64,000 bases of DNA from a virus. Lineage: Duplodnaviria; Heunggongvirae; Uroviricota; Caudoviricetes. Below the pieces are notes generated by a model. The model was given only the letters and a program-made list of their open reading frames with translations, was not told the DNA's origin and made no database searches. Below, in pieces: positions 4,330 to 40,147 of this stretch. The stretch is from the IMG/VR virus record IMGVR_UViG_2880389630_000005; one strand, given 5' to 3'. Each line of letters starts with the position of its first letter. Position 1 is the stretch's first letter. Both the position numbers and the translations under genes were made by a program.

Positions 4330-4490
4330 TGTGGGGTAGTGATCAATTCTGGGCGGAGTTAGTGCAGCCTGGTAGAACCAGCAAGCCTTGTGTGGCGCGG
4401 GGTGTGGTGATTTAGTGTGATTCTGGGCGGATTTGTGAGAAATGACCAAAAACGCTTTTTTTGCGCTTTTTTCTGGGCGCTTTTGATCTG
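4330..4490 (+). repeat. Prophage left end with three direct copies of TTCTGGGCG (candidate transposase-binding sites)
   Basis: TTCTGGGCGG at 4347 and 4421, TTCTGGGCGC at 4471; same motif inverted at right end. Confidence 0.55.
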
Positions 4491-4640
4491 GTTCTGCTAC
4501 AAACTTAACGGGTTTTAAATGCTTTTAAAAAAGTGTTTTATCCTTACCCGTTTTCCTCAATTTGTTCTCATCTGTGTGTTCGGTTTTGTTGTGGTTATTG
4601 CTGATTAGCTAACAGCACACGCCCCGCCAAAACGAGGCGC

Positions 4641-5288
4641 TTATGCTGATTTCTTGTTTACAGGCTTAGTTTCTTGCTCCGGTGTGACGGGAACGCGATC
4701 ACCTGGTGTTCCAGCACAGAAAATAGCTTTGGCGCGGCGCAAAATCTCTTTGTCATTTTCCTCATCGCCAGCTAATGCCATGCAAACAGCGTCTTTAAGC
4801 GATTGCCTGATGTTCAGGCTTTGAATGGCCTTCCTTTGTTCCTCAAGTTCGCTATCGGCTTGCTTGGTTTGCCTGGTGGGTTGCTGTAGGCGTTCCAGGA
4901 CTCCTTTGATGCCAATACAACACAGCATATCAATAAGACGCTCTCTATCTTCTGGAGTAGCTCGCCTTAGTATTTCATCGACAATACTTGTGTTTGGGCG
5001 GTTAACGTCTTCTGTAGGCACCTTTTTTTCTATTATTGGATCATGCCTGCTCTCACCGTAGACCAACCATTCCAGTGATACATTCTCTAATTTTGCTATC
5101 GTAGCGACCACATTTAGGCCGGGAGTGGTGCCTTTCTCAAAGTAGTTATTTATGGTCGAGTACGGCAACCCCCAGTCTGAGGTGGCTTTACGCAGACTCC
5201 TAGTGCCAACCAGTTGCTTGATTCTGTCCTGAATGCTTTCTTTTCTATTCTGAGAAAAGGAAAAATCATCGGCGGTTTGTTTACTCAT
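4641..5288 (-). CDS. Prophage repressor (Mu c-like position), HTH DNA-binding
   Basis: 215 aa from ATG 5288 with RBS gaggaa; divergent from ner; N-terminal HTH-like segment. Confidence 0.7.
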   Translation of the reverse strand: MSKQTADDFSFSQNRKESIQDRIKQLVGTRSLRKATSDWGLPYSTINNYFEKGTTPGLNVVATIAKLENVSLEWLVYGESRHDPIIEKKVPTEDVNRPNTSIVDEILRRATPEDRERLIDMLCCIGIKGVLERLQQPTRQTKQADSELEEQRKAIQSLNIRQSLKDAVCMALAGDEENDKEILRRAKAIFCAGTPGDRVPVTPEQETKPVNKKSA

Positions 5289-5407
5289 TTTCTTTCCTCG
5301 CAATCTATTGATTTACAATGTATTTCTGCAAAAAGACTTTCTTTTCACCAAAGAAAGAAAAGAAAGCTTGTAATTTTCTATTTGTGGATCAATACTTATA
5401 TCCGAAG

Positions 5408-5429
5408 GGATAACACGGCGGTGTTATCC
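5408..5429. promoter_or_regulatory. Candidate operator: 9-bp inverted repeat GGATAACAC-N4-GTGTTATCC plus adjacent GGATAAC half-sites
   Basis: Palindrome in the c-ner intergenic region; extra half-site at 5434-5440. Confidence 0.5.
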
Positions 5430-5456
5430 GCACGGATAACTTTTAAGGGTAACCTA

Positions 5457-5693
5457 ATGATGGTTAGAAATGAAGTAATGAACAAAGACTGGCACCGCGA
5501 GTACATCGTTGCCGCTGTGCACACCAAAGGTTTTACATTGCGTGAACTTTCTGAACGCGCTGGTCTAAAAAAAGACTCTTTAAAAAATGCACTGTATCGC
5601 TCATGCCCTAAATATGAACGCATCATAGCCGATGCTATTGGTGTGGAACCTGCGGAGATCTGGCCAAGCCGGTATGCCAGTAAGGCGGCTTAA
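5457..5693 (+). CDS. ner: Ner-like DNA-binding protein
   Basis: 78 aa; resembles Mu Ner (…KDWHREYI…EIWPSRY…); immediately upstream of transposase. Confidence 0.8.
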   Translation: MMVRNEVMNKDWHREYIVAAVHTKGFTLRELSERAGLKKDSLKNALYRSCPKYERIIADAIGVEPAEIWPSRYASKAA

Positions 5694-7735
5694 TGTTTTA
5701 TTCAGCCAATGAGCTGGCCGGTCTTCCTGGTTTGCCCGGTACAGTTCAGGGGGTGCGCTGGACGCTCAATCGGATCACAGAGACGCACCCGGAATGGAAG
5801 CGCAAGCGTGAAGGCACCAAAGCATTCGAGTATCACATCGACTGCCTGCCCGCTGAAGCGCAGAAAGTTTTACGTAAGCGCCTGACCCATCAGGTCCTGG
5901 AAGATACGCAACTGCCCGCCGTGGTTGAGCAGAAGGCAGTTAAAAACGTCGCCGTTCGCGATGAACTGGAGGTGATGGTCAAATGCCCGGAACTGGCATT
6001 ACGCGAAGTCCAGGCACTGACTGACAAGCAAAAGGCCATCGCTGATGCGCGGATATTGCTGGCTACTGAAGTGCATAAACTGCGCGAATACGCCGGAATG
6101 ACCAGGAAGGCCGCGTTAAAGCACATCGTTGATGGTGTGCGCATGGGGGCGTTACCTGACCGCATTATCGAAGCAGCGAATACTGCAAATGCACGTCAGG
6201 GAAAGCGAACCGGTGTCAGCACCGGCAGCCTGGATAGCTGGTACTCCAGCTGGGTGATGGCGCGCGGTGATGCCAATCAGTTACTGGCGTTACTGGCTCC
6301 CGGTCATCATAAGGGAACACCGTGGGAGCAGGTCTGGTGGTTGAGCGATTTCTTTATGTTCTATCGCTCATGGAAGCGCCCGACCGTTGAATACGCGTAT
6401 CGCGAGTTTTCAGCCTGGTGGCATGAAAAACACGCGAATGATGCGGGAATGCTGGCAGTACTGCCTTCAGTTCACGCAGTCAGACGGGTGTTAAGCAGCG
6501 TCCCGGTGATTGTTAAAGAGCGTTTCCGCTCCACCGGTTCAGCCTGGCGTTCGCTCAATCCCTTTGTGCGGCGCGACTGGAGCACATTACCGGTTAATGC
6601 GGTATGGGTCGGGGATGGTCACTGTATGAAAATGACCGCGTTTAACCCACTGACCGGCAATATTTTCCGGCCAGAAGTGACGCTGGTTATGGATGCGGGT
6701 CAACGCTTTGTTGTGGGCTGGTCACTGTCCCTGTCGGAGAACGTGATAGCCGTTGCTGATGCGTTACGTTACGGCATGGCGCAGCACGGGATACCGCTGA
6801 TTTATTACTCCGATAACGGGGGCGGCGAAAAAAACCGGGTGCTTGACGCCGATATTACCGGGATTTTGCCCCGGCTGGGTGTGGAGCATCACACGGGGAT
6901 ACCAGGTAACCCACAGGGGCGCGGGGTGATTGAAAGGCTTAACAAGGAAATTCCCCGGGATGTGGCCCTGAGTTTCCAGACGTACTGCTCAAAGGGAGCA
7001 GACAAGGAAACCGTAATGATGCAGCAACGGATTATGCAGTCAGCCATTAAGGCCACCCACAAAGGGAAAGAACTGACAAAACGGCAGGTTAAGGCGAGGG
7101 ATGAAGTCCCCACCTTTGAGCAACTGATGGCAGCCATAGAACTGGAAGTCAGACGCTATAACAACCGGCCACACAGCAGCCTTCCTCGCAAAGAGGATGG
7201 CGAGCATTACAGCCCGGCAGCGTATCGCCGGAAACTGATAAAAGAGCAGAATGTTGAAATTGATTTCTTGTCGCCGGAAGAACTGCATGAAATGTTCAGA
7301 CCGGAGGTGACGCGCAAAACATTTCGCGGGGAAATTCAGTTATTCAACAATATTTATTACTCGTATGAGCTGGCCGCAGAGCACGGGAATGAAGTCAGGG
7401 TCAGTTACGATATTCATGATGCAAACAGCGTCATTGTCCGGCGGGCTGATGGCTCTTATATCTGCGATGCCATCTGGAACGGTAACAAGGTTGATGCCTT
7501 CGCTAAACCAGTTATCGAGCAAAAACTGGAGAAACGCGTCAGAGGCCGCATTGCACGGGCCACGCAGAAAATCGAAGAGGCTAAACGCGAGCTTACCCCG
7601 GCTATTACGCAGAAGCCTGACTTTAATCTGGGATATGGACTGGAACGCCCGGAGAAAAAGGAAAAAGAAGAACTTTATTTATTCGCATCTGAACGCGAAC
7701 GCAATTTAAAGAAAAACGGCACAAACAACCGTTAA
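5693..7735 (+). CDS. Mu A-like DDE transposase
   Basis: 680 aa; start overlaps ner stop (TAATG); size and position as Mu A. Confidence 0.9.
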   Translation: MFYSANELAGLPGLPGTVQGVRWTLNRITETHPEWKRKREGTKAFEYHIDCLPAEAQKVLRKRLTHQVLEDTQLPAVVEQKAVKNVAVRDELEVMVKCPELALREVQALTDKQKAIADARILLATEVHKLREYAGMTRKAALKHIVDGVRMGALPDRIIEAANTANARQGKRTGVSTGSLDSWYSSWVMARGDANQLLALLAPGHHKGTPWEQVWWLSDFFMFYRSWKRPTVEYAYREFSAWWHEKHANDAGMLAVLPSVHAVRRVLSSVPVIVKERFRSTGSAWRSLNPFVRRDWSTLPVNAVWVGDGHCMKMTAFNPLTGNIFRPEVTLVMDAGQRFVVGWSLSLSENVIAVADALRYGMAQHGIPLIYYSDNGGGEKNRVLDADITGILPRLGVEHHTGIPGNPQGRGVIERLNKEIPRDVALSFQTYCSKGADKETVMMQQRIMQSAIKATHKGKELTKRQVKARDEVPTFEQLMAAIELEVRRYNNRPHSSLPRKEDGEHYSPAAYRRKLIKEQNVEIDFLSPEELHEMFRPEVTRKTFRGEIQLFNNIYYSYELAAEHGNEVRVSYDIHDANSVIVRRADGSYICDAIWNGNKVDAFAKPVIEQKLEKRVRGRIARATQKIEEAKRELTPAITQKPDFNLGYGLERPEKKEKEELYLFASERERNLKKNGTNNR

Positions 7736-7753: not shown

Positions 7754-8647
7754 ATGAGTTTAATTACGCAATTAAATGACGTAATGGCCCGTCGCGGCTA
7801 TACGCAGACCCACGTCGCCCGTGCCATTGGTCGTAGCAGCGCCGTTATCAGCCAGTATTTACAGGGTAAATATCAGGGCGATATGGCTGATATTGAAGAA
7901 CGCATTTCTACCTTTGTGACCCGTGAGCGGGAAAAGGAAAACAGCCGCCGTATTAAAGCAAAGTTTGTGACCACCGGTATGGCTGCCAAAGGACTGGAGG
8001 TGCTGGCCTACGCTCACCTGGAATGTGAAATCTGTGTGCTGTATGGCGCAGCAGGTCTTGGCAAAACAATGATTCTGCGTGAATACGCCGCCAGAAACCG
8101 GGATGCGCTCCTGATTGAGGCTGACCCGGGCTATACAGCCAGAACACTGCTTGAGGAGTTGTGCCGCCAGCTGGGGGTAAAGGTTCGCGGCAACATTCAC
8201 GAACTGATAGATGCCTGTGTGCGCGAACTGCGTGATTCCGGTCGTCTGCTAATGGTGGACGAGGCTGAACTGCTCCCCTATCGCGCACTGGAGGTTCTGC
8301 GCCGTCTGCATGACAAAGCGGGTATCGGGGTTGTTCTGGCGGGTATGCCTCGTCTTCTGATTAACCTCAAGGGGCGTCGTGGTGAGTTCGCCCAGTTATA
8401 CAGCCGTGTGGCGCTGGCGCTTAACCTGGGCGATACGCTGGCGCAGGAAGATTTTAACCAGATAGCCACCGGGCTGATGCCGGAAGCAGCAGAACCGGAA
8501 ATCAGCGAGGCGCTTTATACACGTTCGCTGGGTAATGCCCGCCGCCTGTTCAAACTGGCGCGTGGTGTGTACCGGATTTGTGATATCAGCGATGCGCCGG
8601 TCAGTGTGCAGGCCATTGATAAATTCGCGGAAATGTTAATTCACTGA
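7754..8647 (+). CDS. Mu B-like AAA+ transposition/target-DNA activator
   Basis: 297 aa; Walker A GAAGLGKT; follows transposase. Confidence 0.9.
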   Translation: MSLITQLNDVMARRGYTQTHVARAIGRSSAVISQYLQGKYQGDMADIEERISTFVTREREKENSRRIKAKFVTTGMAAKGLEVLAYAHLECEICVLYGAAGLGKTMILREYAARNRDALLIEADPGYTARTLLEELCRQLGVKVRGNIHELIDACVRELRDSGRLLMVDEAELLPYRALEVLRRLHDKAGIGVVLAGMPRLLINLKGRRGEFAQLYSRVALALNLGDTLAQEDFNQIATGLMPEAAEPEISEALYTRSLGNARRLFKLARGVYRICDISDAPVSVQAIDKFAEMLIH

Positions 8648-8886
8648 TGGAGAACAAGACGATGGACAAGCAGACCATTAACGCCGTCCGTTCCCGTGCC
8701 CGTGTGGCCATCCACACCACCGGTGGTCGTGTAACGGGACAGCATCACCGTTTACCTGTGGTTTATGCCTGCCCACCTGTGGGTGGTCCTGTATGGCCGG
8801 TAACGGAAATCATCCAGACATTCAGCGGCCTGCGCCGCGTGGTGAAAACATCCTGTATCGACGGCTGCACCGTCGTATGGCAATGA
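8647..8886 (+). CDS. Hypothetical early protein
   Basis: 79 aa; ATG overlaps B stop (TGATG). Confidence 0.35.
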   Translation: MENKTMDKQTINAVRSRARVAIHTTGGRVTGQHHRLPVVYACPPVGGPVWPVTEIIQTFSGLRRVVKTSCIDGCTVVWQ

Positions 8887-8898
8887 GAGGAAATCAGA

Positions 8899-9114
8899 AT
8901 GGCGGTTAAGTTAGAAGTAATTATCTATACCGATGAAAAAGGCTGTGTTTTAACCCAGACCACGGGGAGTTATTCGAAGGACGGAGCTTCCGAAAAGGAG
9001 TTTCAGGTGGCAACAAGATTACATGATGCTATCAAGGAAACGCTCAGAAATGACTATAACGGCGTGAATCTTTTTTCTGAAAATGTTGCGCCTCGCGCAC
9101 ATAACACACATTAA
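8899..9114 (+). CDS. Hypothetical early protein
   Basis: 71 aa; RBS agaggaaa upstream. Confidence 0.45.
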   Translation: MAVKLEVIIYTDEKGCVLTQTTGSYSKDGASEKEFQVATRLHDAIKETLRNDYNGVNLFSENVAPRAHNTH

Positions 9115-9143
9115 TCTGTAAATATCACTGAGGTAATTTAATT

Positions 9144-9788
9144 ATGACGACTGAAAATAAAGTTAAGCAATACACGAAAACTCAAGCGCCTGAAGGTTAC
9201 TGGGTGGATGCCCGTGGCGTAATGACACCTGAAAGCCTTATCAAAGATATTGACCGCGACCGCGAGCAGCTGGTCGGTGAGCTTGTGGAGATGGTGATTG
9301 CTGCCTCCGCCTCACTGCGGGAACTGAAACTGCGTGCGTTTGGTGATATCCAGGCATTTATTGACCTGTCGGCGGAGAAATACGGTGCTGTGAAAGGCGG
9401 CAAAAAAGGGAATATCACGCTTTACAGCTTTGACGGGCGTTACAAGATTCAGCGCGCCATGCAGGACCGTATCGCGTTTGATGAACGCATTCAGACCGCG
9501 AAGGCGCTGATTGACGACTGTCTGGCTGACTGGACGGAAGGTGCGCGCCCTGAAATTAAAGCCATCATCAGTGAGGCATTCAGCACGGACAAGGAAGGCA
9601 ACATCAACACCGGGCGCGTTCTGGCCCTGCGTCGCCTCGAAATTGAGGACGAACGCTGGAATAACGCCATGTCGCTGATTGGTGAAGCCGTCCAGGTGAT
9701 TGGCAGCAAGAGCTATATTCGTGTGTATGAGCGCGTTGGTGATTCTGATGAATACCGCGCAATCCCTCTTGATATTGCAGGGGTTTAA
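9144..9788 (+). CDS. Conserved Mu-like early protein (possibly DUF3164-like)
   Basis: 214 aa; RBS gagg upstream; family assignment tentative, from memory. Confidence 0.6.
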   Translation: MTTENKVKQYTKTQAPEGYWVDARGVMTPESLIKDIDRDREQLVGELVEMVIAASASLRELKLRAFGDIQAFIDLSAEKYGAVKGGKKGNITLYSFDGRYKIQRAMQDRIAFDERIQTAKALIDDCLADWTEGARPEIKAIISEAFSTDKEGNINTGRVLALRRLEIEDERWNNAMSLIGEAVQVIGSKSYIRVYERVGDSDEYRAIPLDIAGV

Positions 9789-9789
9789 T

Positions 9790-10023
9790 ATGCATCAGAA
9801 TATCAAAGAGTACAGAGCCGGAAATAGTTGCGCGGCGTATTCGCTGGGCGCGTCCAGAGCAGAACAACGCGGCGATTATGACGAGGCAGAAAAACTGTGG
9901 CGCAAGGCAGCGCAAAGCCCGTGTAGCACCCTGCGCCGCATCTGGGCTGAACATCGTGCGGAGTTCTGCGCTAACGCTCACCTGAAGGGCTGGAGGCCAC
10001 GCCATGAATGCGAAGAACTTTAA
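9790..10023 (+). CDS. Hypothetical early protein
   Basis: 77 aa from ATG 9790 directly after upstream stop. Confidence 0.4.
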   Translation: MHQNIKEYRAGNSCAAYSLGASRAEQRGDYDEAEKLWRKAAQSPCSTLRRIWAEHRAEFCANAHLKGWRPRHECEEL

Positions 10024-10195
10024 TAAGCAGTATCCGGTAGGGGCTCGCTTCATGCACACTGCACATCCGGCGTTGCGTGGTGGTCGTGTGGTGAAAACCG
10101 TTTCACCTGCCAGAGATTTTAAATGTGGTTGTGTGGTTGAAATTAATGTCGAGCCTTATTTCGTTAAAGTCGAAACACTGAAAGCAGCGCATTAA
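10004..10195 (+). CDS. Hypothetical early protein
   Basis: 63 aa; RBS ggagg upstream. Confidence 0.4.
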   Translation: MNAKNFNKQYPVGARFMHTAHPALRGGRVVKTVSPARDFKCGCVVEINVEPYFVKVETLKAAH

Positions 10196-10269
10196 TTTAA
10201 TTCAATTTTAATTGTTATTTAAAACAGGCGTAAACCCGCCGGGGCTGGCTTACGCCTGAATCTAGAGAA

Positions 10270-10662
10270 ATGAAAATGAGTGTTACCGTTATCAATGAAA
10301 TGCTTGGGCGTACATTTAAAGAAGTAGTTAAGAATGAAAACGATGAACTTGTTTTTCGTGGTGATTATTCCCGGGGAGTATGGGGAACCGTGTTTACATT
10401 TTTCCACTTTCAGGAGGGCTGCGAAAAAGTCTGGATTGAGGACATCGTCGGAGACCTTGACGACCTGAAAGATGAACCGCTGACAGAGGCTGAAGTGGTT
10501 ACCGAAGAATGTGATGTTGGGGAAGGTCATCAGACATGGAGTTTCTTTAAGTTCGGCACATCAAAAGGCTGTGTAGTCGTCAGATGGTGCGGTGAGAGCG
10601 AGGGCTTTTATTCTGAGTGCGTTTCACTGAAGCGGGAATTAACTGACGTCTTCGATTTTTAA
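10270..10662 (+). CDS. Hypothetical acidic early protein
   Basis: 130 aa; strongly acidic (many D/E); no recognisable motif. Confidence 0.5.
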   Translation: MKMSVTVINEMLGRTFKEVVKNENDELVFRGDYSRGVWGTVFTFFHFQEGCEKVWIEDIVGDLDDLKDEPLTEAEVVTEECDVGEGHQTWSFFKFGTSKGCVVVRWCGESEGFYSECVSLKRELTDVFDF

Positions 10663-10725
10663 CTCTGACTTCGTTTTTTTATGGCGCAGGTAAACAGGTC
10701 TGCGCCTGAATAAGAGAAATTCATT

Positions 10726-11454
10726 ATGGAAAATAAAAGCAAATACATTGCCAAAATTAAAAAGCTGTTACGCCTTGCCAAAGGAACATCAAGCCCGGAA
10801 GAAGCCGCTAACGCTATTGCAAAAGCCCAGGCTTATATGCGCCAGCATGGTATCAGCGAAAACGACGCTGAATTGTTCGACATTCAGGAAGCTGCCAGCG
10901 CGGGTGCACCGAGTGATGCCAGTACGCCGCCGCTTTATATGCACATCCTGTGTGACCTGGTCTGTAAAGCCTTCGGCGTCGAGTGTTACATCTCCGGTGA
11001 GTACCGGGCTTCTGGTTTACTCAAACGTTACGTGCGTTTTTATGGCCCTGACAGCCGCCCGGAAATCGCGGCTTACGCGTTTGATGTGCTTTCCCGTCAG
11101 ATGATGGCTGAACGCAAGAAATATCAGGATAAACACTGCAAACGTTGCGGCCCGTCCACGCGGGTGGCCCGTGGCGACCAGTTCTGCGAAGGCTGGGTCT
11201 TTGGTGCCCGTGATGTCATTGCGGTGTATGACGTCTCCCCGGAAGAAAAAAGCCGCCTTGAGCTTTACAGAAAGAACCTGCACAGCACTAAAGGACTGCG
11301 CGACGGGGATATGCGTACGGCTAAAGCGTGCCGGGGTGCAGAGTTTGCCGCTACTGCCGGTTTTATCGCCGGGAAAAACGCCAGGCTGCATCAGGGGGTT
11401 AATGGTCAGAGCAACAGACCGCTGGCACTGGGAGGGTGTAACGATGGCTTTTAA
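10726..11454 (+). CDS. DUF2786-like phage protein
   Basis: 242 aa; N-terminal IAKIKKLLRLAKGTSSPEEAANAIAKAQAYMRQH matches the DUF2786 signature (from memory). Confidence 0.65.
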   Translation: MENKSKYIAKIKKLLRLAKGTSSPEEAANAIAKAQAYMRQHGISENDAELFDIQEAASAGAPSDASTPPLYMHILCDLVCKAFGVECYISGEYRASGLLKRYVRFYGPDSRPEIAAYAFDVLSRQMMAERKKYQDKHCKRCGPSTRVARGDQFCEGWVFGARDVIAVYDVSPEEKSRLELYRKNLHSTKGLRDGDMRTAKACRGAEFAATAGFIAGKNARLHQGVNGQSNRPLALGGCNDGF

Positions 11455-11671
11455 ACTTCTTAGTGTTACCGAAGCAATATACCAGCCTCCTGGAGAACGC
11501 CACGAATACAGGATGAATGACGGTAGCGCGGTGGTTGAGTTCCCCGGATATCCGGGGGCTTCCCGGTGGCGGTTCTACGACAGTGTGGGACGTCGGATTA
11601 TTAAAAGAACCGTGCACAACAATATGAAGGCTGCCGTAGAACGTCATAAGAGAAGGTTTAACTGCAAATGA
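11444..11671 (+). CDS. Hypothetical early protein
   Basis: 75 aa; RBS ggaggg upstream of ATG 11444. Confidence 0.4.
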   Translation: MAFKLLSVTEAIYQPPGERHEYRMNDGSAVVEFPGYPGASRWRFYDSVGRRIIKRTVHNNMKAAVERHKRRFNCK

Positions 11672-11898
11672 AAATTGAATTTTATGACCATGGGGTCACC
11701 GCAACTATCACTATTTCTTGTTGGTTCTGGGAGTTCCACCGTTACTTCAGAGTTGTAGATGCTGCGCTGTTTGTTGCACCGGGAGCGTTACATCACAGTG
11801 GAATCGGTATTGTTATGAACACTGTCATCAGCGGTAAAACGGTCCCGATGTTGCGGGCGTTTAAAGTGGCAAAACAGGAGGCTGGCAATGGTCATTGA
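11668..11898 (+). CDS. Hypothetical early protein
   Basis: 76 aa; start overlaps upstream stop. Confidence 0.3.
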   Translation: MKIEFYDHGVTATITISCWFWEFHRYFRVVDAALFVAPGALHHSGIGIVMNTVISGKTVPMLRAFKVAKQEAGNGH

Positions 11899-12178
11899 TA
11901 AAACGATAACGATAGATGTAGCCATGAATACAGGTCTGGCGCTTATCGGTTATGGCTATATCACTTTTATGTCATTCAGGTGGTTGATTTCTTCGATCTT
12001 TAAGCAGCGTGAAAAACGTCGTTGTAAAGACAAGCGCGCGAAGGCGCTAAATACGTTTAATGACGCTTTTGATATTGACCGTATGCAACAGGGCGACCCC
12101 GCACGTGTAATTACCCGGGGAGATATCGTGATTTTGGTATACCGGAGTGAAAAAAATGAGCAGGAGGCGGCGCAGTGA
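11888..12178 (+). CDS. Hypothetical small membrane protein
   Basis: 96 aa; hydrophobic segment LALIGYGYITFMSF; RBS ggagg. Confidence 0.45.
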   Translation: MVIDKTITIDVAMNTGLALIGYGYITFMSFRWLISSIFKQREKRRCKDKRAKALNTFNDAFDIDRMQQGDPARVITRGDIVILVYRSEKNEQEAAQ

Positions 12179-13386: not shown

Positions 13387-13409
13387 CCAAAAGTAGTGTT
13401 TTGGTCATT

Positions 13410-29878: not shown

Positions 29879-29892
29879 CCGAAGAACAAATC

Positions 29893-32314: not shown

Positions 32315-33663
32315 TGGGCTGGGCTGAAAACCTGCAAAACGCTTCCTTTCGTGGCGTGCAGTTTGAGGTGCTGAATACTGACGAACAAATCAGCCGCGAC
32401 CATGCGGTCTATGAATACCCGTTTGTTGACGGGGCGGATTTGCACGACCTCGGACGCAAGGCGCGACCGTTCCGCATGACGGCGTTCCTGTGGGGCGATG
32501 ACTATGAATATAAACTCGGGAAACTGACCGCCGCCCTGGATGAAGGCGGCGATGGTGAACTGATTCATCCGGTTTATGGCTCTGTGCCGTCGGTGATTGT
32601 GACCGGCTACAACATCCGCCATGACGCAGAAAGCCCGGACAGCTGCACCATTGACATGAGTTTTCTGGAAAACCGCACCGGTAGCGCGTTGTTCAGCACC
32701 CCGTTACCGGAGCTGTTCGCGCAACAGTTGTTTGATGAACTGGACACTTTACAGGCGCGGTTAAGTGATTTTTTTGATGCCGTTACTGCACCTTTAAATA
32801 CCGTTAACGGCATGATTAAAAAAGCCCAGACAGTGCGTGCCACACTGGTGAATACCCTGCTGTCGTTCAAAAGTGATTTTGTCTCCACTGTCGATAATAT
32901 CGTGTCACTGGCAGGCGAACCCGGAAAATTTATCAATGAACTGGCAGAGGTGCTGGAAATCCACACATCAGATGTCGGGCAACCGGTGCAGGTTCTGCAA
33001 CGTGTTGATTCTGCCACCCGGACCGGGTTGGCAGGAGAGACGACCGTCGCCAGTTCTGCGACAGTGATGAACTGCTGGAATAAGGTCATCACTGATATGG
33101 ATGAATTTGTTGCGTTGCCTGTTACCCTGGTCAGTGGCGATAAAGTAGCGGAGGTGGCACTTCCTGCGGATGCCTCGCCAGACGATGTGCAGGATGTGAA
33201 AGCAGTTTACGCAACACAGGCCGCATCTGAACTGGCCAGTGTTGCAATGGCGATACTGGTTGATGATGCGCAGTCAGAACAGCTTATACCGGCGGATATC
33301 GGGCGACTGGTCGGGGATGTGCGCACCCGCTTACAGGCTGCCATCACGCTGTTCCGTGAACGCTATGAAGGCGAACGCGAACGGATAACCGAAACCGCAT
33401 CACCGCTGGGGCTGATGTACCCGGAAATCATTCAGAGCATGAAAAACGTGGCGGCAACCGTGCAGGATGTCGGCCTGCTGGTTCTGTCACGCCGCCCACC
33501 GCTGACGCAGAAACAGGTGCAGGCGGACAGCTGTCTGCTGTTGCTGGCGTGGCAGTGGTACGGCGATTACAGTCGTGCGGCAGAACTGCAACGCCTGAAC
33601 CCGCAGTTACGTGACCCGAACAACATAACCGCCGGGGTGGTAATTAATGCCTACGCCAAATAA
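32314..33663 (+). CDS. DNA circularisation protein (Mu N-like)
   Basis: 449 aa; position after tape measure; Mu N-like N-terminus. Confidence 0.8.
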   Translation: MGWAENLQNASFRGVQFEVLNTDEQISRDHAVYEYPFVDGADLHDLGRKARPFRMTAFLWGDDYEYKLGKLTAALDEGGDGELIHPVYGSVPSVIVTGYNIRHDAESPDSCTIDMSFLENRTGSALFSTPLPELFAQQLFDELDTLQARLSDFFDAVTAPLNTVNGMIKKAQTVRATLVNTLLSFKSDFVSTVDNIVSLAGEPGKFINELAEVLEIHTSDVGQPVQVLQRVDSATRTGLAGETTVASSATVMNCWNKVITDMDEFVALPVTLVSGDKVAEVALPADASPDDVQDVKAVYATQAASELASVAMAILVDDAQSEQLIPADIGRLVGDVRTRLQAAITLFRERYEGERERITETASPLGLMYPEIIQSMKNVAATVQDVGLLVLSRRPPLTQKQVQADSCLLLLAWQWYGDYSRAAELQRLNPQLRDPNNITAGVVINAYAK

Positions 33664-34858
33664 CGAAGACAAAATTAGCCTGGTCATTGCCGGAAGGTCG
33701 CATTCTGACTGGAGCAGTTATCGTATTGACAGCGATTTCCTGAAAGCTGCCGACGGCTGGCAGCTTCAGCTGGGGCTGCCTGAAAAGGTGTTCCCGGCGG
33801 ATATCGTCCGGGGCGCACAAATCCGGTTGCAGGTGGGAGATGAAACGGTGCTCAGTGGGCGCATAGACAGCGTGCGCCGTAGTGTGTCCCGTCAGAGCTG
33901 CACGCTGGCCCTGTCCGGGCGTGATGATGCCGCCATCCTGGTGGACTGTGCCGCGCCGGTGTTCAGCGCCAACCAGCTGACGCTGGACGAGGTCATCGAC
34001 AGGATAGTCAGACCACTGGGGATACAGCGCATCCGTATACAGGCGTCCGGTGTGTCACGTAATGACAAAGTTGTTATTGAGCCGGGGATGCGTGCGTGGG
34101 ATGCACTGGCCAAAGCTGCCGCCGGTCGCGGCTTATGGCCGTGGTTTGAGCCTGACGGGACGCTGGTTGTGGGTGGCCCTGACTACACCACCACGCCGGT
34201 GGATACGCTGATTCTGAAGCTGAACGGCACCGGGAACAACGTGATGGAGCTGGACGATACCCGATCCATTAACGGCTGTTTCTCCGAACTGACGGTGCTG
34301 GCCCAGAGCCACGCCCGCCGCGCAGACAGCAAGAAACAGGTGGCCGTGGTGCCGCTGGATATCTGGAACGAGGACGGCAGCGTGCGCACATTATCCGGGC
34401 AGGACAGCGGTAATACGGACTGTGGTCAGACAGGCATTCATAACATGAAAGCCGTGGCCACCGACCCCACCGTGGATTATTACCGCCCGCAGATTATCAC
34501 CCAGGGCGACACCAGCAATCTGGAGCAGGTGAGCTGGCGCGCAAAAAAAATGATGAGTGATGCCCGCCTGTCGGGGCTGGATATCGTCGCACTGGTTGCA
34601 GGTCATCGCACGGCAGATGGTGTTCTGTGGCAGCCCGGCCAGCGGGTGCGGATTGTCAGCGAACTCCACGGCATTGATGCCATCTTTTTCCTGATGGGGC
34701 GTGAGTTCAGCGGAGGCCGGAACGGGCAGACAACCCGGCTTCGCTTTAAGGAGGACGGCGTGTGGATACCTGACGCCTTCCCGCGCGAGAAGAAACGCCA
34801 TCACCGCAGGGGCAAAAAGAAAAAAGAGGTCGCCATTGTTAAGGTCTGGGAGAAATGA
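33647..34858 (+). CDS. Tail/baseplate hub protein (Mu P-like)
   Basis: 403 aa; position. Confidence 0.8.
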   Translation: MPTPNNEDKISLVIAGRSHSDWSSYRIDSDFLKAADGWQLQLGLPEKVFPADIVRGAQIRLQVGDETVLSGRIDSVRRSVSRQSCTLALSGRDDAAILVDCAAPVFSANQLTLDEVIDRIVRPLGIQRIRIQASGVSRNDKVVIEPGMRAWDALAKAAAGRGLWPWFEPDGTLVVGGPDYTTTPVDTLILKLNGTGNNVMELDDTRSINGCFSELTVLAQSHARRADSKKQVAVVPLDIWNEDGSVRTLSGQDSGNTDCGQTGIHNMKAVATDPTVDYYRPQIITQGDTSNLEQVSWRAKKMMSDARLSGLDIVALVAGHRTADGVLWQPGQRVRIVSELHGIDAIFFLMGREFSGGRNGQTTRLRFKEDGVWIPDAFPREKKRHHRRGKKKKEVAIVKVWEK

Positions 34859-35508
34859 TGTGGGACAAGGTTAATCAGCGCGTACAGCAGGCACTGGCCG
34901 CCGTTCGCCAGGCATTCAGGGTGGTGATCGGTACGGTGGACAGTTCGACCAAAGTACAGCTGCTTCAGCTGAACGGGCTGGCAGGCGAACAGCTGGATGG
35001 TGCGGAGTATTTTCAGCATTACGGCCTCACCACATCCCCGCCGCCCGGCTCAATGGGTATTGCCGTTCCGCTGAATGGCAATACCTCCCATACCGTCATC
35101 GTGGCCACAGAGCACGGCGCATATCGCCTGACGGAACTGAAACCCGGCGAGGTGGCCCTGTATACCGACGAAGGCGCGAAAATCGTATTGAAGCGCGGGC
35201 GGATTATTGAAACAGAATGTGACGTTTACCGGGTGAAATGCAAACGCTATGAGGTTGAGGCAGAGGAGAACGCCGCATTCACGACACCGTTACTGACGGC
35301 CAGCGATAAGCTGACGGTGGAAGGTAAAATCACCGGCAACGGTGGCATGGCCATCCGTGGCGGCAAGGAATACGCCGCCACTTTTGAAGGCAACATCAAC
35401 CATGTGGGTGGTGTGCTTACCTCCGTTGATGTCACCATTAATGGCATTAAAATCGGAACACACAAACACCCAACCCCACACGGCATGTCTGACACGCCGG
35501 TTAATTAA
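34855..35508 (+). CDS. Baseplate assembly protein V-like (spike)
   Basis: 217 aa; gpV-like C-terminus. Confidence 0.8.
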   Translation: MMWDKVNQRVQQALAAVRQAFRVVIGTVDSSTKVQLLQLNGLAGEQLDGAEYFQHYGLTTSPPPGSMGIAVPLNGNTSHTVIVATEHGAYRLTELKPGEVALYTDEGAKIVLKRGRIIETECDVYRVKCKRYEVEAEENAAFTTPLLTASDKLTVEGKITGNGGMAIRGGKEYAATFEGNINHVGGVLTSVDVTINGIKIGTHKHPTPHGMSDTPVN

Positions 35509-35561
35509 GTGCTGAACACCCTCACCTGATTCTGACCTGTCCATGCTGCCAGACTGGCGGC

Positions 35562-35912
35562 ATGGACCAGACGATTTCACCTGCAACCGGCGACTACGAA
35601 CGCCGCCGGATTTATACACTCCATAACGCGGTTTATCTGCGACTGGCGACACCGCTTGGCAGTTACTGGGCGGATGCGTTGCTGGGGTCACGCCTGCACG
35701 AACTGAAGCGGGAAAAAGACGTTTCCCGTGTTCACAGGCTGGCGGCGCAGTATGCCAGCCAGGCACTTCAGCCCCTGCTTGATGACGGGCGGGCAAAATC
35801 CATTACTGTTGACACGAAACCGGGTCAGCGCGGCTGGCTGTTGCTGTTAATCACCGTCACGGATAACGCGGGCACACCGCAGACATTTGAACACCCTGTG
35901 AGGATTATGTAA
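35562..35912 (+). CDS. Baseplate protein (Mu gp46-like)
   Basis: 116 aa; position. Confidence 0.7.
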   Translation: MDQTISPATGDYERRRIYTLHNAVYLRLATPLGSYWADALLGSRLHELKREKDVSRVHRLAAQYASQALQPLLDDGRAKSITVDTKPGQRGWLLLLITVTDNAGTPQTFEHPVRIM

Positions 35913-36991
35913 TGCCGTTTCCTGTTCCGGGCGTTGCTGAAAACACAGAACGCCAGCTACGTGATATCGCTAACGCCCTGCCGGGAGAAACCATCGACAC
36001 CAGCGCTGACAGCGATTACCGCATTCGTGCAAATGCCGTATCCGGTGTGGCTGACGGGCTTTATATGCATCAGGGGTGGATACTCCGTCAGGTGTTTCCT
36101 GACACGGCAGACCCTGAATATCTGGAGCTGCACTGCCGCACGCGCAATGTTTTTCGTAAAAAAGCGACCGCCTCATCCGGTCCGGTGGTGATTACCGGCA
36201 CTCCCGGTAAGACACTGCCAGCCGGTGCGGAAATTCGTGGTGAAGGTGTCAGCGTGTCCACCACAGCAGACTGCACCATCGGCCACGAAGGCAGCGCAGA
36301 GGTGACGGTAAAAAGCACTGCCACGGGGGCACTGACGAATGCATCCACGACGCAGACGGCAACGCTGGTCAGTCCGCCGGAAGGCATCAACAGCACGGTG
36401 ACGATTAAATCCCTGACCGGTGGAACAGACAGGGAAAGCAACGCCGACCTGCTGGCGCGTTATCTGGACATTCTGCGCAGGCCGCCCGCTGGCGGTAATA
36501 AATATGATTACAAACGCTGGGCGCTGGAAGTGGATGGCGTTACCTCGGCATATGTGGAGCCATTACGTCGTGGACTGGGGACGGTTGATGTGGCCATTAC
36601 GTCAGCCAATGACCTTCCCTCGCAGGAACTGATTAATGCCGTGCTGGCACATATTGAGGAAGTCTGCCCGGTCACAGCAAAGGACACGATGGTACTGGCC
36701 CCGACGAAAAAAGCCGTTGATTTCGTTGTCCGGGTAAAAACCAGCGGCCTGACCGTTGAGCAGATAAAACCACAGATAACTGAAGTTATCACGGATTTTA
36801 TGAACCGACTGGAGCCGGGGCAGGAATTAATTATTTCACAACTGGAAACTCAGATTTCATTAATTTCTGGCGTCAGTGACCGGCGGATTATTATGCCGTC
36901 AGATAATGTAAAAGCAGTTGTCAATGAATCCACATGGGAGTGGCTGCGTCCGGGGAGTATTGATATCCAGCCATTTCCCCGGGAGAGTTAA
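35912..36991 (+). CDS. Baseplate J-like protein (Mu gp47-like)
   Basis: 359 aa; position and size. Confidence 0.85.
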   Translation: MPFPVPGVAENTERQLRDIANALPGETIDTSADSDYRIRANAVSGVADGLYMHQGWILRQVFPDTADPEYLELHCRTRNVFRKKATASSGPVVITGTPGKTLPAGAEIRGEGVSVSTTADCTIGHEGSAEVTVKSTATGALTNASTTQTATLVSPPEGINSTVTIKSLTGGTDRESNADLLARYLDILRRPPAGGNKYDYKRWALEVDGVTSAYVEPLRRGLGTVDVAITSANDLPSQELINAVLAHIEEVCPVTAKDTMVLAPTKKAVDFVVRVKTSGLTVEQIKPQITEVITDFMNRLEPGQELIISQLETQISLISGVSDRRIIMPSDNVKAVVNESTWEWLRPGSIDIQPFPRES

Positions 36992-36994
36992 TAC

Positions 36995-37567
36995 ATGAAT
37001 ACGGTTGATTTATTTCGTGCCATGTTACCACCGGTCAGCTATGACCCGAACGGGAAATATATTTCAACAGAACTGAACGCAGAAGCAGCCATTATGGATG
37101 AAGTAAAAGCGTCAGCTGCACGAGTGCTTGCATCTGTCACACCATTTTACGCATCCATGACACTGTCTGACTGGGAACGAGTGTATGAAGTAATACCCCG
37201 CGATGGTGCCACACAGCAGGAACGCCGAGAAAATATTCTTATAAAGATGGCTGCAACTGGTGGGTTATCTATCCCTTATTTTAAACAACTTGCAGCCAGC
37301 CTCGGGTACACCATAACAATTACTGAACTCCATCCATTTAGAACGGGGGTAAACCGATGTGGTGATCGTCTCTATATAACAGATGCCCGATGGATTTGGC
37401 AGGTTAATGTCACAGGAAGCAAAACGCCAGCTTACAGATTCAGAACCGGAGTATCTGCTGCCGGGGAACCGTTACTTTCCTTTGGTGCCCCTGTACTGGA
37501 AGAAACATTTAAAGAGCTTAAACCCGCTTTTACTTATTGCCATTTCACATATAAGGAGGAGCAGTAA
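36995..37567 (+). CDS. Tail protein (Mu gp48-like)
   Basis: 190 aa; position. Confidence 0.75.
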
Positions 37568-39945
37568 TGCAAAATCTGATGCCCCCGATAAATACACCGG
37601 ATCAATTGTTTCATGATGGTGACCCCACTCAGGGGATAGAAGGAACCATCGTAACTGCTGATTATTTAAACAATCAGCAGGGGGCAATCCGTGATTTACA
37701 GCAGGAACTCCTTAATGTTCTTGGTAGTGTACATATTCAACCTGCCCCCCAAAAAACGGATCAGCTACTTACCGCGCTTCGTGCGCTGCTGTTAAGCCGC
37801 AAGAATCCGTTTGGCGATATCAAATCGGATGGCACGGTAGAACGCGCTCTTGAAAATCTGGGGTTACAGGATGTAAAAGCTGGTTCATTGAACAATCTGT
37901 ACACTAACCATTCCCGTAGTGTCTTAATGGAATTGCCGTTATTATTCCCGGACTACGATACGGTGCTGGCTGCTCAGTCTGGTGCGGAATATATGTATCC
38001 ACAGGGATTTGTGGTGACAGGAGAAAAAATCTATCTGAGTTATACCGTTGAGCCAAAGCAGACACGGAACGTTATAGTTCAGTACACAACATCCGGCGAA
38101 TATGAGGGATATTATTATGTCGATAATGGAGGTCGTGGCGTTGTCAGCGAAGGCCTTGTGGTGACAACGGATTACGGTGGATTACGTTTGTTCATGTCAG
38201 GAGAAAATGGATTACTGAAACAGTTTTCGCTTGATGGGGCAATTTCTGGTTCAGTATTGCCGTTAATTGATGAACATGATGTCGGTGTTTACAACCAGTT
38301 CAGCTATCGTAAAAACCGCTGGGTGGTTGAACAGTCAGCGCCGGAAGTGGGAGGCCTGATCACCCGCACAGTATTTGCGGTGTATGATTTTCAGTTTCGT
38401 CGGACAGGGACATTCACATTACCGTTGCATGATTCCGGATATATCACGGAAAGCACAGACAGCTATGCAAGACGCTTCACAAAACGTCAGGGAATTGCTG
38501 TGGGAGACGATTATATTGCCTGTTCTTATGGTGGCTATTTTAATACCGGGGCATCAGCCGGATTTAACCAGTTTCAGGGGGTTAAGGTCTTTTCTCCGGA
38601 TGGAGTAAAGCAGCAGGAATCCATTCTTCATCCCCAAAAAATGATAGATGTGCTTACCAGGCAGGGTTTTACACCTTCGCGCATTGAGAACGAAGGAATT
38701 TGTATTTCTGACGACGGCGGCAGTATATATTCGCTTTATATCTTTCTGGAGCGTGGGTTACCACAGGCTTATCAGAAAGGAATTGTTCTGATGAAAGAGT
38801 TCAGTACTGGCAGAGATGCTATTGATTTTCGTCAGGCAGCCTGGTTGTACACGGGGTTTGATGTGTCTCATGCCAGTATTGGAACATTTCCCCGTAGTGC
38901 CCAGGGGTTGGTAAACCCGGTGTTGGGGACGGTATTCACATCCCTGTCTGAAATTCTGGCATATATGCGTTCTGTGAGTCAGAAATGGTTTTGTCTGCAT
39001 ACAACCACGACACCGATTAAAGATCTGAGTGGAAATGACATTCCTGCTGACAATTATGTGTTCATCAAGAATGCTAATAACCAGACATTCTATATAACGC
39101 AGGAGTCAGCTGAAGGTGGAATAAAATATAAAGCTGTCACTACAGACAGCGGAGAATATGGTTTTCAGCGACAAAGAGAGGCAATCTGGTCCAATGTTAT
39201 CACCATCGCACAAAAGAGCGATGGTGAGGATCAGTTTAATCGTATTATCGCTGCCTCGAAAAGTGGTTCGGGTAAAAATCAGGATAAAATACTGGTAGTT
39301 GACCAACAGGCATCAGAGGGGAATAACACGCTGGTAATTGGCGGTGGTTCATCTGTGTTCAGGTCAGCGACAGTGATTGATTTTGCAACGAATCAGGATG
39401 CAAATGCCACAGGAGGAGAAAAGAGATGGCGCATAGATTCATCAGGAAATCTCCGCCCTTATACAGATAATACGTATTCGATCGGTTATGCCTCATGGCG
39501 ACCCGCACAGGTTTATTCAGCTACGGGAAGTATCAGTACATCAGACCGGACTCATAAACAGGACGAAACAATTCTGTCGGATGCAGAAAAAAGGGTTGCC
39601 AGAAAGCTGCTCGGGTATATCTGTCGGTTCCGTTTCAGGGATGCAGTGTCCAGCAAAGGGAACGCAGCCAGATGGCATGTAGGAGTGATTGCTCAGGACG
39701 TACAGAAGGTCTTCTCCGAGGAAGGGCTGGACGCTTTTGATTACGGTATTTTGTGTCGTGATGAATATCCGGCGGAATATGAAGTGGTTTACGGGACTCG
39801 TATGGAGCTTGGTTCTGACGGACTCCTTACAATGGAAGAATACGATACCGGAGAGCGCAAGCTGGTCAGGGAGGCTGGTGAAATAATGTCTGTAAGGAAT
39901 GATGAGCTGCATTATTTCATGCTGGCATCGCTGTCTGGCCAGTGA
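37567..39945 (+). CDS. Tail fibre protein with C-terminal intramolecular chaperone (peptidase S74-like) domain
   Basis: 792 aa; C-terminal SDRTHKQDE...[11 protein letters not shown] matches the self-cleaving chaperone signature; last gene before prophage right end. Confidence 0.8.
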
Positions 39946-40060
39946 ATAATATTAATGTAAGGAGCGATATAAGCTCCTTACATCATGCATTTTATGCTGC
40001 GATTATGCGTTCTCCTGTTGTTTGTTGCTGAGAGTGAAACACCGGAAACATAACTAATAA

Positions 40061-40147
40061 GTTAGCGCCCAATTCTGGGCTTTTTGGCTGAGATCTCCCC
40101 GCCCAGAATTGGGCGCTAATTAGCCCAGAAAAAAACGCGAAGTTACA
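40061..40147 (+). repeat. Prophage right end: 19-bp inverted repeat TTAGCGCCCAATTCTGGGC/GCCCAGAATTGGGCGCTAA plus inverted TTCTGGGC motif copies
   Basis: Perfect inverted repeat at 40061-40080 and 40101-40119; CCCAGAA at 40123-40130. Confidence 0.55.

What the first reader, a model, noticed from the sequence alone, without database searches (positions are those of the whole stretch)
4330..40147. Complete-looking Mu-like transposable prophage inserted in the CP4-44-like island
Gene order c / ner / A / B / early accessory genes / GemA / Mor / lysis / terminase / portal / F / G / I / T / sheath / tube / tape measure / N / P / baseplate / fibre mirrors Mu. No obvious frameshifts were seen in the large structural genes. 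It lacks a G-inversion segment, gin and mom. A transposable phage sitting inside another cryptic prophage is a nested arrangement and a potential active mutator.
Basis: partly seen in the sequence, partly recalled or inferred. Interest (0 to 1): 0.6.

Follow-up and report, generated by a model that had tools for sequence, protein, structure and literature searches.

The report
Intact Mu-like transposable prophage in CP4-44
This is a complete, apparently still mobile Mu-type "jumping" phage that has landed inside an old cryptic prophage of E. coli; it is an ordinary member of a known kind, but its lineage duplicates 4 bases of target DNA where Mu duplicates 5.

Summary
Window 4330-40147 is a 35,818-bp element with TGT...ACA tips and 51 intact ORFs in Mu gene order. 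It interrupts a 214-aa ORF between yeeT and cbeA of the CP4-44 island. Removing the element plus one CTGG copy restores a sequence 100% identical to the uninterrupted site in many E. coli genomes. A copy differing by 1 nucleotide sits in cirA of strain S13. Relatives sit in aslB, ypdF, eutC (EPEC E2348/69) and another prophage's capsid gene, so integration is by transposition and recent. It is not Mu, D108 or SfMu. There is no nucleotide match to any deposited phage. Its transposase is 21-22% identical to MuA, and its repressor and large terminase are unrelated to Mu's. It has no G segment, gin or mom. Instead it carries an orphan type II DNA methyltransferase and a fibre with a self-chaperoning S74 domain. 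The target duplication is 4 bp at all nine sites examined, against 5 bp for Mu and 6 bp for B3. Depositors annotated the same 4 bp for Sp18-like phages. Verdict: a new member of a known kind, of modest interest. Nesting inside mobile elements is common for E. coli Mu-like phages.

The parts
4254..4329 (+). 5' part of the interrupted host ORF (214 aa when rejoined, no Pfam family) between yeeT and cbeA of CP4-44; its last 4 bases (4326-4329, CTGG) are the left copy of the target duplication
   Evidence: The rejoined flanks minus one CTGG match uninterrupted E. coli sites at 100% over 796 nt.
4330..4480 (+). Left end (attL-like). The tip is TGT. Three direct TTCTGGGCG repeats lie at 4347-4355 (L1), 4421-4429 (L2) and 4471-4479 (L3); these are putative transposase-binding sites.
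   Evidence: Exact copies of the 9-mer occur only at the element's ends in the 64-kb window (4347, 4421, 4471 and 40100).
4641..5288 (-). Repressor c, a CI-type HTH protein of 215 aa with no peptidase domain detected
   Evidence: PF07022. No similarity to Mu c. 67% identical to the E2348/69 counterpart.
5289..5456 (.). c-ner divergent regulatory region with an inverted repeat GGATAACAC...GTGTTATCC (operator-like; inferred)
   Evidence: sequence. The consensus promoter scan found nothing.
5457..5693 (+). ner-like early regulator
   Evidence: HTH_35, 9e-26
5693..7735 (+). Transposase A, 680 aa: N-terminal Mu DNA-binding domain, DDE (rve) core and Mu-transpos_C domain
   Evidence: The closest deposited phage homologue is 48.8% identical; identity to MuA is 21-22%.
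7754..8647 (+). Transposition ATPase B (MuB-like AAA+)
   Evidence: 33% identity to MuB over 214 aa, E = 8e-22.
8662..13688 (+). Early accessory region: a kil-like gene (8662-8886), DUF3164, ANR, DUF7448, DUF2786, DUF4752 and small ORFs of unknown function. No Gam homologue was detected.
13660..14058 (+). GemA family protein
   Evidence: PF06252, 2.5e-18
14632..15099 (+). Mor-family transcription activator, the only Mor/C family member found
   Evidence: PF08765
15586..16793 (+). Lysis cassette: two holins and a GH108 endolysin
17199..17699 (+). DUF1804 protein, in the position of Mu gp27 (small terminase)
   Evidence: 2.8e-52; position as in Mu
17746..18486 (+). Orphan type II N6/N4 DNA methyltransferase with no adjacent restriction gene
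18488..20128 (+). Large terminase, a different lineage from Mu gp28
   Evidence: phrog_38, 1.7e-142; no significant match to Mu gp28
20132..23428 (+). Portal (Portal_Mu), head morphogenesis protein F and virion morphogenesis protein G
23429..23637 (.). G-I intergenic region, 53% of the way along the element. It is a candidate central strong gyrase site and shares a GGCATAA...TTTTTAAA core with the Mu region that holds the annotated gyrase cut site.
   Evidence: Position is analogous to Mu (PMC10052514). Function is inferred.
23638..27697 (+). Protease/scaffold I, a virion structural protein, major head protein T, and head-tail joining genes (gp35-38 equivalents)
27690..32314 (+). Contractile tail: sheath, tube, assembly chaperone and tape measure
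32314..37567 (+). DNA circularisation protein N and the baseplate (P, gp45, gp46, gp47/J, gp48)
37567..39945 (+). Tail fibre, 792 aa, with a C-terminal Peptidase_S74 intramolecular chaperone domain. There is no separate assembly gene. GC is lower (about 46%), consistent with an exchanged module.
39990..40147 (+). Right end (attR-like). The tip is ...ACA. Repeats lie at 40122-40130 (R1) and 40100-40108 (R2), pointing inward, and at 40073-40081 (R3), inverted.
40148..40718 (+). 3' part of the interrupted host ORF; its first 4 bases (40148-40151, CTGG) are the right copy of the target duplication

Best explanation
Window 4330-40147 is an intact temperate myovirus of the transposable (Mu-like) class. 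It integrated by DDE transposition into a small ORF of the cryptic prophage CP4-44.

Shown:
- Exact ends and a 4-bp target duplication.
- A matching empty site in other E. coli genomes.
- Complete coding capacity.
- A near-identical copy at another locus in another strain.

Inferred mechanism. The CI-type repressor c holds the early operon (ner-A-B) silent. On derepression, transposase A binds the three TTCTGGGCG-type repeats at each end and pairs the ends, possibly helped by a central gyrase site between G and I. It nicks at the terminal CA-3' and, with the MuB-like ATPase choosing targets, joins the ends to target DNA across a 4-bp stagger. Repeated replicative transposition amplifies the genome. 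A Mor-family activator turns on lysis and morphogenesis genes. Headful packaging from the integrated copies would give virions carrying host DNA at both ends. The orphan methyltransferase probably protects phage DNA from restriction, in place of Mom. The fibre folds through its own S74 chaperone domain, in place of the S/U genes and G-segment switching.
For: - Ends and empty site. Flanks rejoined with one CTGG removed match at 100% over 796 nt in many genomes.
- cirA control: the S13 cirA site rejoined with one CATT removed matches at 100% over 500 nt.
- Recent mobility: S13 carries the same 35,818-bp element with 1 mismatch, in cirA.
- Many sites, each with a 4-bp duplication: aslB, ypdF, eutC, a prophage capsid gene and IMG/VR contigs.
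- Coding capacity: 51 of 51 ORFs intact, with family assignments.
- Transposase: D374-N375 aligns with MuA D336-N337, and GDG and G-x-G-x-I-E-R motifs are present.
- End repeats: at 18, 92 and 142 nt from the left tip and at 18, 40 and 67 (inverted) nt from the right tip.
- Central site: the G-I spacer shares a core with the Mu region holding the gyrase cut site (PMC10052514).
- Distribution: 34 of 5,426 complete E. coli genomes hold at least 80% of the first 24 kb.
Against: - No experiment shows induction, particle formation or transposition of this copy.
- Only one Mor/C-family activator was found, where Mu uses two.
- No Gam homologue was found.
- The consensus promoter scan found no sigma-70 promoter in the c-ner region.
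- The two copies in strain AVS0151 are different variants, so they do not demonstrate replicative transposition within one genome.
- A regulatory point mutation would be invisible to these analyses.
Confidence: 0.88

Rival explanations
1. It is a member of the Mu species group (Mu, D108, SfMu; genus Muvirus) that has lost the G segment, gin and mom.
For: Same gene order and many shared Pfam families. MuB is 33% identical and the major head protein about 40%.
Against: Megablast found no nucleotide match to Mu, D108 or SfMu. Identity to MuA is 21-22%. The repressor and large terminase show no significant similarity to Mu's. The target duplication is 4 bp, not 5. The nearest deposited phage is Klebsiella phage ST405-OXA48phi1.1, at 34-72% amino-acid identity.
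Confidence: 0.02
2. It is a recently immobilised (defective) prophage. It looks intact but is locked in place by a regulatory or subtle missense defect, so it is not an active mutator.
For: No functional data exist. Only one late activator was recognised, and no promoter consensus was found in the c-ner region. The strain the window comes from is unknown.
Against: All 51 ORFs are open. Only 1 nt in 35,818 differs from a copy at another locus. Both ends and the duplication are perfect. A close relative at 95-100% protein identity keeps every gene at the same length.
Confidence: 0.1
3. The element entered by site-specific or homologous recombination, for example exchange with a resident copy, and not by transposition. 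On this view the short repeat is coincidental.
For: A single 4-bp repeat is expected by chance once in 256 junctions.
Against: No integrase or recombinase gene is present. Nine unrelated sites all carry a 4-bp repeat of different sequence. Two empty sites were reconstructed exactly.
Confidence: 0.01

Closest known systems
Mu-like prophage in eutC of EPEC O127:H6 E2348/69 (NC_011601, about 2,715,935-2,751,670)
   Same: 49 of 51 proteins are shared, mostly at 95-100% identity. The end sequences are the same, the orphan methyltransferase is the same, and the duplication is 4 bp (CACT).
   Different: The repressor is only 67% identical, so the immunity type is probably different. Several early ORFs are swapped. 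The E2348/69 element has a short fibre plus two oppositely oriented fibre/assembly gene sets, resembling a G segment but with no gin in the element. The window element has one long S74-type fibre.
Prophage in cirA of E. coli S13, R4 and AVS0151 (e.g. NZ_CP107117 3,165,469-3,201,286)
   Same: The same phage: 35,818 bp with 1 mismatch.
   Different: It is inserted in cirA with the duplication CATT, not in CP4-44 with CTGG. PGAP splits its fibre gene into fragments although the sequence is identical there.
Sp18 of E. coli O157:H7 Sakai and Sp18-like phages inserted in Stx phages (LC727895, LC727881)
   Same: These are E. coli Mu-like myoviruses that insert at variable sites, often inside other prophages. 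The depositors annotated 4-bp duplications, which were checked here as AGAG and GATG (PMC10132054, PMC2669165).
   Different: The transposase is only about 45% identical. The end repeats differ (TTTGATACC type). One tip reads TA, not CA. Sp18 has an invertible host-range segment (PMC2669165).
Klebsiella phage ST405-OXA48phi1.1 (MK388859)
   Same: This is the nearest deposited phage record. 30 of 51 proteins match in the same order, at 34-72% identity.
   Different: Its repressor, most early genes, lysis genes and fibre are different. It has no methyltransferase between the terminase genes.
Bacteriophage Mu (NC_000929)
   Same: Overall architecture is the same: c/ner/A/B, a semi-essential early region with kil and GemA, Mor, lysis, a DUF1804/gp27-type protein, a DUF935 portal, F, G, I, T, a contractile tail, N, P and the baseplate. 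The tips are TG...CA. The three-plus-three end-repeat layout resembles what I recall for Mu. A non-coding G-I spacer lies at mid-genome.
   Different: Its duplication is 5 bp. Mu's repressor is related to the MuA N-terminus, whereas here it is CI-type. Mu has a second activator C, Gam, the G segment with gin, and com/mom. Its large terminase is of a different lineage. Identity to MuA is 21-22%.

Membership tests
Transposable (Mu-like) phages | DDE transposase of the MuA type | tested here: met
   PF02316, rve and PF09299 are found in a 680-aa ORF. It aligns to MuA with D374-N375 matching D336-N337.
Transposable (Mu-like) phages | MuB-like AAA+ target-selection ATPase next to the transposase gene | tested here: met
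   AAA_22/TniB-like protein of 297 aa; 33% identical to MuB, E = 8e-22.
Transposable (Mu-like) phages | TG...CA tips with repeated transposase-binding sites at both ends | tested here: met
   The tips are TGT...ACA. Six TTCTGGGCG-type repeats are confined to the two ends. Binding itself was not tested.
Transposable (Mu-like) phages | Short target-site duplication flanking the prophage, with one copy in the empty site | tested here: met
   CTGG flanks the element here. Empty sites were reconstructed at 100% identity. Nine sites show a 4-bp duplication.
Transposable (Mu-like) phages | Integration at many unrelated loci | tested here: met
   Insertions are seen in a CP4-44 ORF, cirA, aslB, ypdF, eutC, a prophage capsid gene and further sites.
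Transposable (Mu-like) phages | Virion DNA carries variable host sequences at both ends (headful packaging of integrated copies) | not testable with these tools
   This needs sequencing of particle DNA.
Genus Muvirus (Mu, D108, SfMu) | Nucleotide similarity across the genome to Mu | tested here: not met
   Megablast of the whole element against 50,697 phage records gave no hit to Mu, D108 or SfMu beyond a 98-nt fibre fragment shared with SfV-type phages. Protein identities to Mu range from 21-49% down to none.
Genus Muvirus (Mu, D108, SfMu) | 5-bp target duplication | tested here: not met
   The duplication is 4 bp at all nine sites. A 5-bp reading fails at seven; at the window and SCAID sites it cannot be excluded from the junction alone.
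Genus Muvirus (Mu, D108, SfMu) | Invertible G segment with gin, and com/mom at the right end | tested here: not met
   A single 792-aa fibre ORF runs to 39945, followed only by the 202-bp right end.
B3-type transposable phages | 6-bp target duplication (PMC8705779) | tested here: not met
   The duplication is 4 bp (calls as above). The transposase carries the Mu-type N- and C-terminal domains.

The most novel reading that the evidence does not exclude
The E2348/69-type phages, including this one, and the Sp18-type phages would together form a clade of Mu-type transposases that cut the target with a 4-bp stagger. The stagger is 5 bp for Mu and 6 bp for B3. They may also prefer 5'-M-N-N-K-3' targets: position 1 is C or A at 9 of 9 sites, and position 4 is G or T at 8 of 9.

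The review text I could read lists only 5 and 6 bp for transposable phages (PMC8705779). The 4-bp duplication appears only as a feature line in GenBank records LC727895 and LC727881. If it is truly undescribed, it offers a natural variant for asking what sets the spacing of the two active sites in a Mu-type transpososome.
Probability: 0.45. Interest if true: 0.45.

Novelty: new member of a known kind. Interest (0 to 1): 0.3.

Why it matters
For the host strain, this is a probably live insertional mutagen and transducing phage. In close relatives it has already knocked out cirA (a siderophore and colicin receptor), aslB, ypdF and eutC. Here it splits an ORF just upstream of the cbeA/cbtA toxin-antitoxin pair.

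For phage biology, it documents an E. coli Mu-like lineage that has no deposited phage genome at the nucleotide level. It is present in about 0.6% of complete E. coli genomes (34 of 5,426).

The lineage has replaced three Mu hallmarks with other solutions:
- mom by an orphan methyltransferase;
- the S/U genes and G inversion by a self-chaperoning fibre;
- the Mu-type repressor by a CI-type one.

It also makes 4-bp target duplications. None of this changes current understanding. It is a well-preserved example, useful for comparative work on transposition.

Tried and rejected
1. Whole-proteome BLAST against Mu in Python was not possible, because the Mu locus (L002) was never exported to /data. 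I used five pairwise comparisons and one alignment instead.
2. A 5-bp duplication was considered. The window site alone allows ACTGG or CTGGT if one tip base is reassigned. This was rejected because it fails at cirA, aslB, ypdF, eutC and the IMG/VR sites, and because both end repeats sit exactly 18 nt from the tips only when the tips are 4330 and 40147.
3. I hoped the two copies in strain AVS0151 would show replicative transposition within one genome. They encode different protein accessions, so they are two related phages.
4. A scan of one genome per species (GTDB) for the exact left end found nothing. The lineage's exact ends were seen only in E. coli-derived records.
5. The consensus promoter scan of the left 1.5 kb found no sigma-70 site.
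6. PADLOC found no defence system among ten accessory proteins, apart from the methyltransferase.
7. Rfam found no RNA family inside the element.
8. Iguchi et al. 2009 (E2348/69 genome) and Harshey 2014 (Mu review) are not held. Statements about them rest on memory and are marked as such in the full report.
9. Literature searches for a 4-bp duplication in Mu-like phages found nothing relevant.
Full report
**Observation.**

The window carries a long run of + strand ORFs between about 4.3 and 40.1 kb, with raised GC and positive GC skew. It contains no tRNA gene.

Megablast against 5,426 complete E. coli genomes gives matches that begin exactly at window 4330 and end exactly at 40147. The sequence there reads ...GACTGG|TGTGGGGTAG... 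and ...GCGAAGTTACA|CTGGTACC....

I mapped the RefSeq annotation of the best hit (strain S13) onto the window. All 50 CDSs and the 792-aa fibre ORF are open.

**What the genes are.**

Pfam and PHROGs assign the following, in this order:
- a CI-type HTH repressor on the minus strand;
- a Ner-type HTH protein;
- a 680-aa transposase with the Mu DNA-binding domain, an rve core and the Mu-transpos_C domain;
- a MuB-like AAA+ ATPase;
- a Kil homologue;
- about 15 small early ORFs, mostly of unknown function (DUF3164, ANR, DUF7448, DUF2786, DUF4752);
- GemA and one Mor-family activator;
- two holins and a GH108 endolysin;
- a DUF1804 protein in the position of Mu gp27;
- an N6/N4 DNA methyltransferase;
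- a large terminase;
- a Portal_Mu protein, Mu F, G, I (protease/scaffold) and a structural protein;
- the gpT major head protein and head-tail joining proteins;
- sheath, tube, chaperone and tape measure;
- DNA-circularisation protein N and the baseplate proteins P, gp45, gp46, J and gp48;
- a fibre whose C-terminus is a Peptidase_S74 intramolecular chaperone domain.

Nothing resembling gin, an inverted fibre segment, com or mom is present. The fibre gene ends 202 bp from the right tip. No Gam homologue and no second Mor/C-type activator were found.

**How it got there.**

The flanks are IS21 istB, DUF932, an antirestriction protein, RadC/YeeS and YeeT on the left. On the right are CbeA, CbtA, then FUSC (yeeA-like), GyrI-like (sbmC-like) and PBP5-type (dacD-like) genes. 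From my knowledge of the K-12 map, this is CP4-44 in its usual neighbourhood.

The element splits a 214-aa ORF with no Pfam family. Joining the flanks after removing one CTGG gives a 796-nt sequence found uninterrupted at 100% identity in many E. coli genomes, annotated there as "hypothetical protein" next to yeeT and yeeS.

Strain S13 carries the same 35,818-bp element with a single mismatch, but inside cirA. Rejoining the S13 flanks after removing one CATT gives intact cirA at 100% over 500 nt.

Further copies or close relatives lie in:
- aslB (AVS0151);
- ypdF (Ec55);
- a capsid/protease gene of another prophage (SCAID WND1-2021);
- eutC (E2348/69);
- other sites in IMG/VR contigs from isolate genomes.

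The element has no integrase. Integration is therefore by transposition, and given the 1-nt difference it was recent.

**The duplication is 4 bp.**

The nine sites with both flanks show these repeats:
- CTGG (window);
- CATT (cirA);
- AGAT (aslB);
- ACTT (SCAID);
- CGCT (ypdF);
- CACT (eutC);
- CTTG;
- CATG;
- AACC (this one is pieced from sister assemblies).

A 5-bp reading is possible at the window and SCAID sites if a tip base is reassigned, but it fails at the others. The cirA empty site leaves no room for a fifth base.

Independent support for tips at 4330 and 40147 comes from the first end repeat, which starts exactly 18 nt from each tip.

The Sp18-like Mu-like phages inserted in Stx phages have a transposase about 45% identical to this one. 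GenBank annotates them with 4-bp duplications, and I checked these in the sequence as AGAG and GATG. The 4-bp stagger is thus a trait of a wider E. coli clade.

The one review-type text I could read gives 5 bp for Mu and 6 bp for B3 and calls "the 5/6 bp duplication" the recognisable scar (PMC8705779). Searches for a 4-bp case in Mu-like phages found nothing relevant.

In this small sample, position 1 of the duplication is C or A in 9 of 9 sites and position 4 is G or T in 8 of 9. That is a symmetric M-N-N-K pattern and needs more sites to be trusted.

**Ends and internal sites.**

Exact copies of the 9-mer TTCTGGGCG occur only at the element's ends within the 64-kb window. Counting one-mismatch copies, there are three at each end:
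- Left end: 18, 92 and 142 nt from the tip, all pointing inward.
- Right end: 18 and 40 nt from the tip pointing inward, and a third at 67 nt, inverted.

From memory of the Mu literature, this resembles the L1-L3 and R1-R3 layout; I could not check that here. Binding by the transposase is inferred.

The 209-bp non-coding spacer between G and I lies 53% of the way along the element. Mu's strong gyrase site lies between G and I near the genome centre (PMC10052514; annotated cut site in NC_000929). The window spacer, the Mu spacer and that of a Klebsiella relative share a GGCATAA...TTTTTAAA core. A central gyrase site is therefore a reasonable inference but is not shown.

**Relation to known phages.**

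Megablast of the whole element against 50,697 phage records finds only short mosaic fragments. These are an Ea22-like piece, a 98-nt fibre piece shared with SfV-type phages, and a 538-nt early-region piece shared with two Yersinia phages. There is no match to Mu, D108 or SfMu.

Protein comparisons to Mu:

| Protein | Result against Mu |
|---|---|
| Transposase A | 21-22% identity |
| B | 33% |
| Major head T | about 40-49% in blocks |
| Large terminase | not significant |
| Repressor c | not significant |

In the transposase, D374-N375 aligns with MuA D336-N337. A GDG motif at 307-309 and a G-R-G-V-I-E-R motif at 409-415 match the first and third catalytic positions of rve-type enzymes; this last point is my reading of the alignments.

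The nearest deposited phage is Klebsiella phage ST405-OXA48phi1.1, with 30 of 51 proteins at 34-72% identity in the same order.

The nearest relative overall is the eutC prophage of EPEC E2348/69, with 49 of 51 proteins mostly at 95-100% identity. It differs in the repressor (67%), a few early ORFs and the distal fibre module. There E2348/69 has two oppositely oriented fibre/assembly sets and no gin. I recall that this prophage was listed as Mu-like in the E2348/69 genome paper, but that paper is not held.

Thirty-four of 5,426 complete genomes hold at least 80% of the first 24 kb.

**Mechanism, with what is shown and what is inferred.**

Shown: structure, ends, duplication, empty sites, multiple loci and near-identity between loci.

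Inferred from the families involved:
1. Repressor c silences the ner-A-B operon.
2. A, bound to the end repeats, nicks at the CA-3' tips and joins them to targets captured by B across a 4-bp stagger.
3. Replication through the joints amplifies the genome.
4. Mor switches on later genes.
5. The terminase packages integrated copies by the headful.

The methyltransferase is an orphan type II enzyme. It probably serves self-protection against restriction, the role Mom plays in Mu.

The S74 domain explains the missing fibre-assembly gene, because such domains fold and then cleave themselves off trimeric fibres (established for endosialidase-type fibres).

The repressor shows only an HTH domain, and the Mu-like Sp18 is reported as not MMC-inducible (PMC2669165).

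**Is the nesting special?**

No. In the CC119 STEC study, 6 of 10 Mu-like phages lay inside other mobile elements, including Stx phages (PMC10132054). One relative found here sits in another prophage's capsid gene.

**Verdict.**

It is a new member (a new insertion) of a known kind.

The only less ordinary point is the consistent 4-bp duplication of this clade. It is visible in public annotation but, as far as I could find, is not discussed in the literature.

Interest is 0.3.

Noticed in passing
window 46963-64000: A second prophage, P22-like, starts right after the dacD-like gene. It has a tailspike with the P22 head-binding domain and a beta-helix (46963-49044, minus strand), the Ant antirepressor (49254-50186, minus strand), and sar antisense RNA (Rfam RF00262, 97 bits, 50157-50224). 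A PIN-domain gene and large minus-strand ORFs follow, in a low-GC (40%) stretch. The tailspike lies at the very edge next to dacD, with no int or gtr genes in between.
   Followed up: partly
window 17746-18486: An orphan type II N6/N4 DNA methyltransferase sits between the DUF1804 (small-terminase-position) gene and terL. It is 99.6% conserved in the E2348/69 relative and absent at that position in the Klebsiella relative. Its target motif is unknown.
   Followed up: partly
window 14055-14531: A 158-aa ORF between GemA and Mor has no Pfam, PHROG or PADLOC match. It is 100% identical in the E2348/69 prophage.
   Followed up: partly
L003 (NC_011601) 46257-48618: The E2348/69 relative carries a G-segment-like arrangement: fibre and assembly genes on one strand facing assembly and gp53-like genes on the other. 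There is no invertase gene inside the prophage, so inversion, if any, would need a recombinase encoded elsewhere.
   Followed up: no
L012/L013 (LC727895) and L017 (LC727881): Sp18-like Mu-like phages inserted in Stx phages have one tip reading TG and the other TA (TGTAACC... and TATAGCG... read inward). Their repeats are TTTGATACC-type, and they also have 4-bp duplications.
   Followed up: partly
NZ_CP124372 (AVS0151), 5,143,246-5,179,061 and about 3,290,109-3,326,002: One strain carries two related but non-identical members of this phage lineage, in cirA and aslB. The cirA copy shares its exact site and duplication with S13 and R4 yet scored 99.3% rather than 100% to the window over the first 24 kb. 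That could reflect recombination between the two residents.
   Followed up: partly
window 39960-40052: The 93 nt just downstream of the fibre gene are 100% identical to a sequence found in 52 other complete genomes, many of them ST131, that lack this phage's right end. This points to a fibre module exchanged with an unrelated prophage.
   Followed up: no
window 1-747: The window begins inside an IS21-family element (IstB ATPase ORF). It lies within or at the left part of the CP4-44-like island.
   Followed up: no
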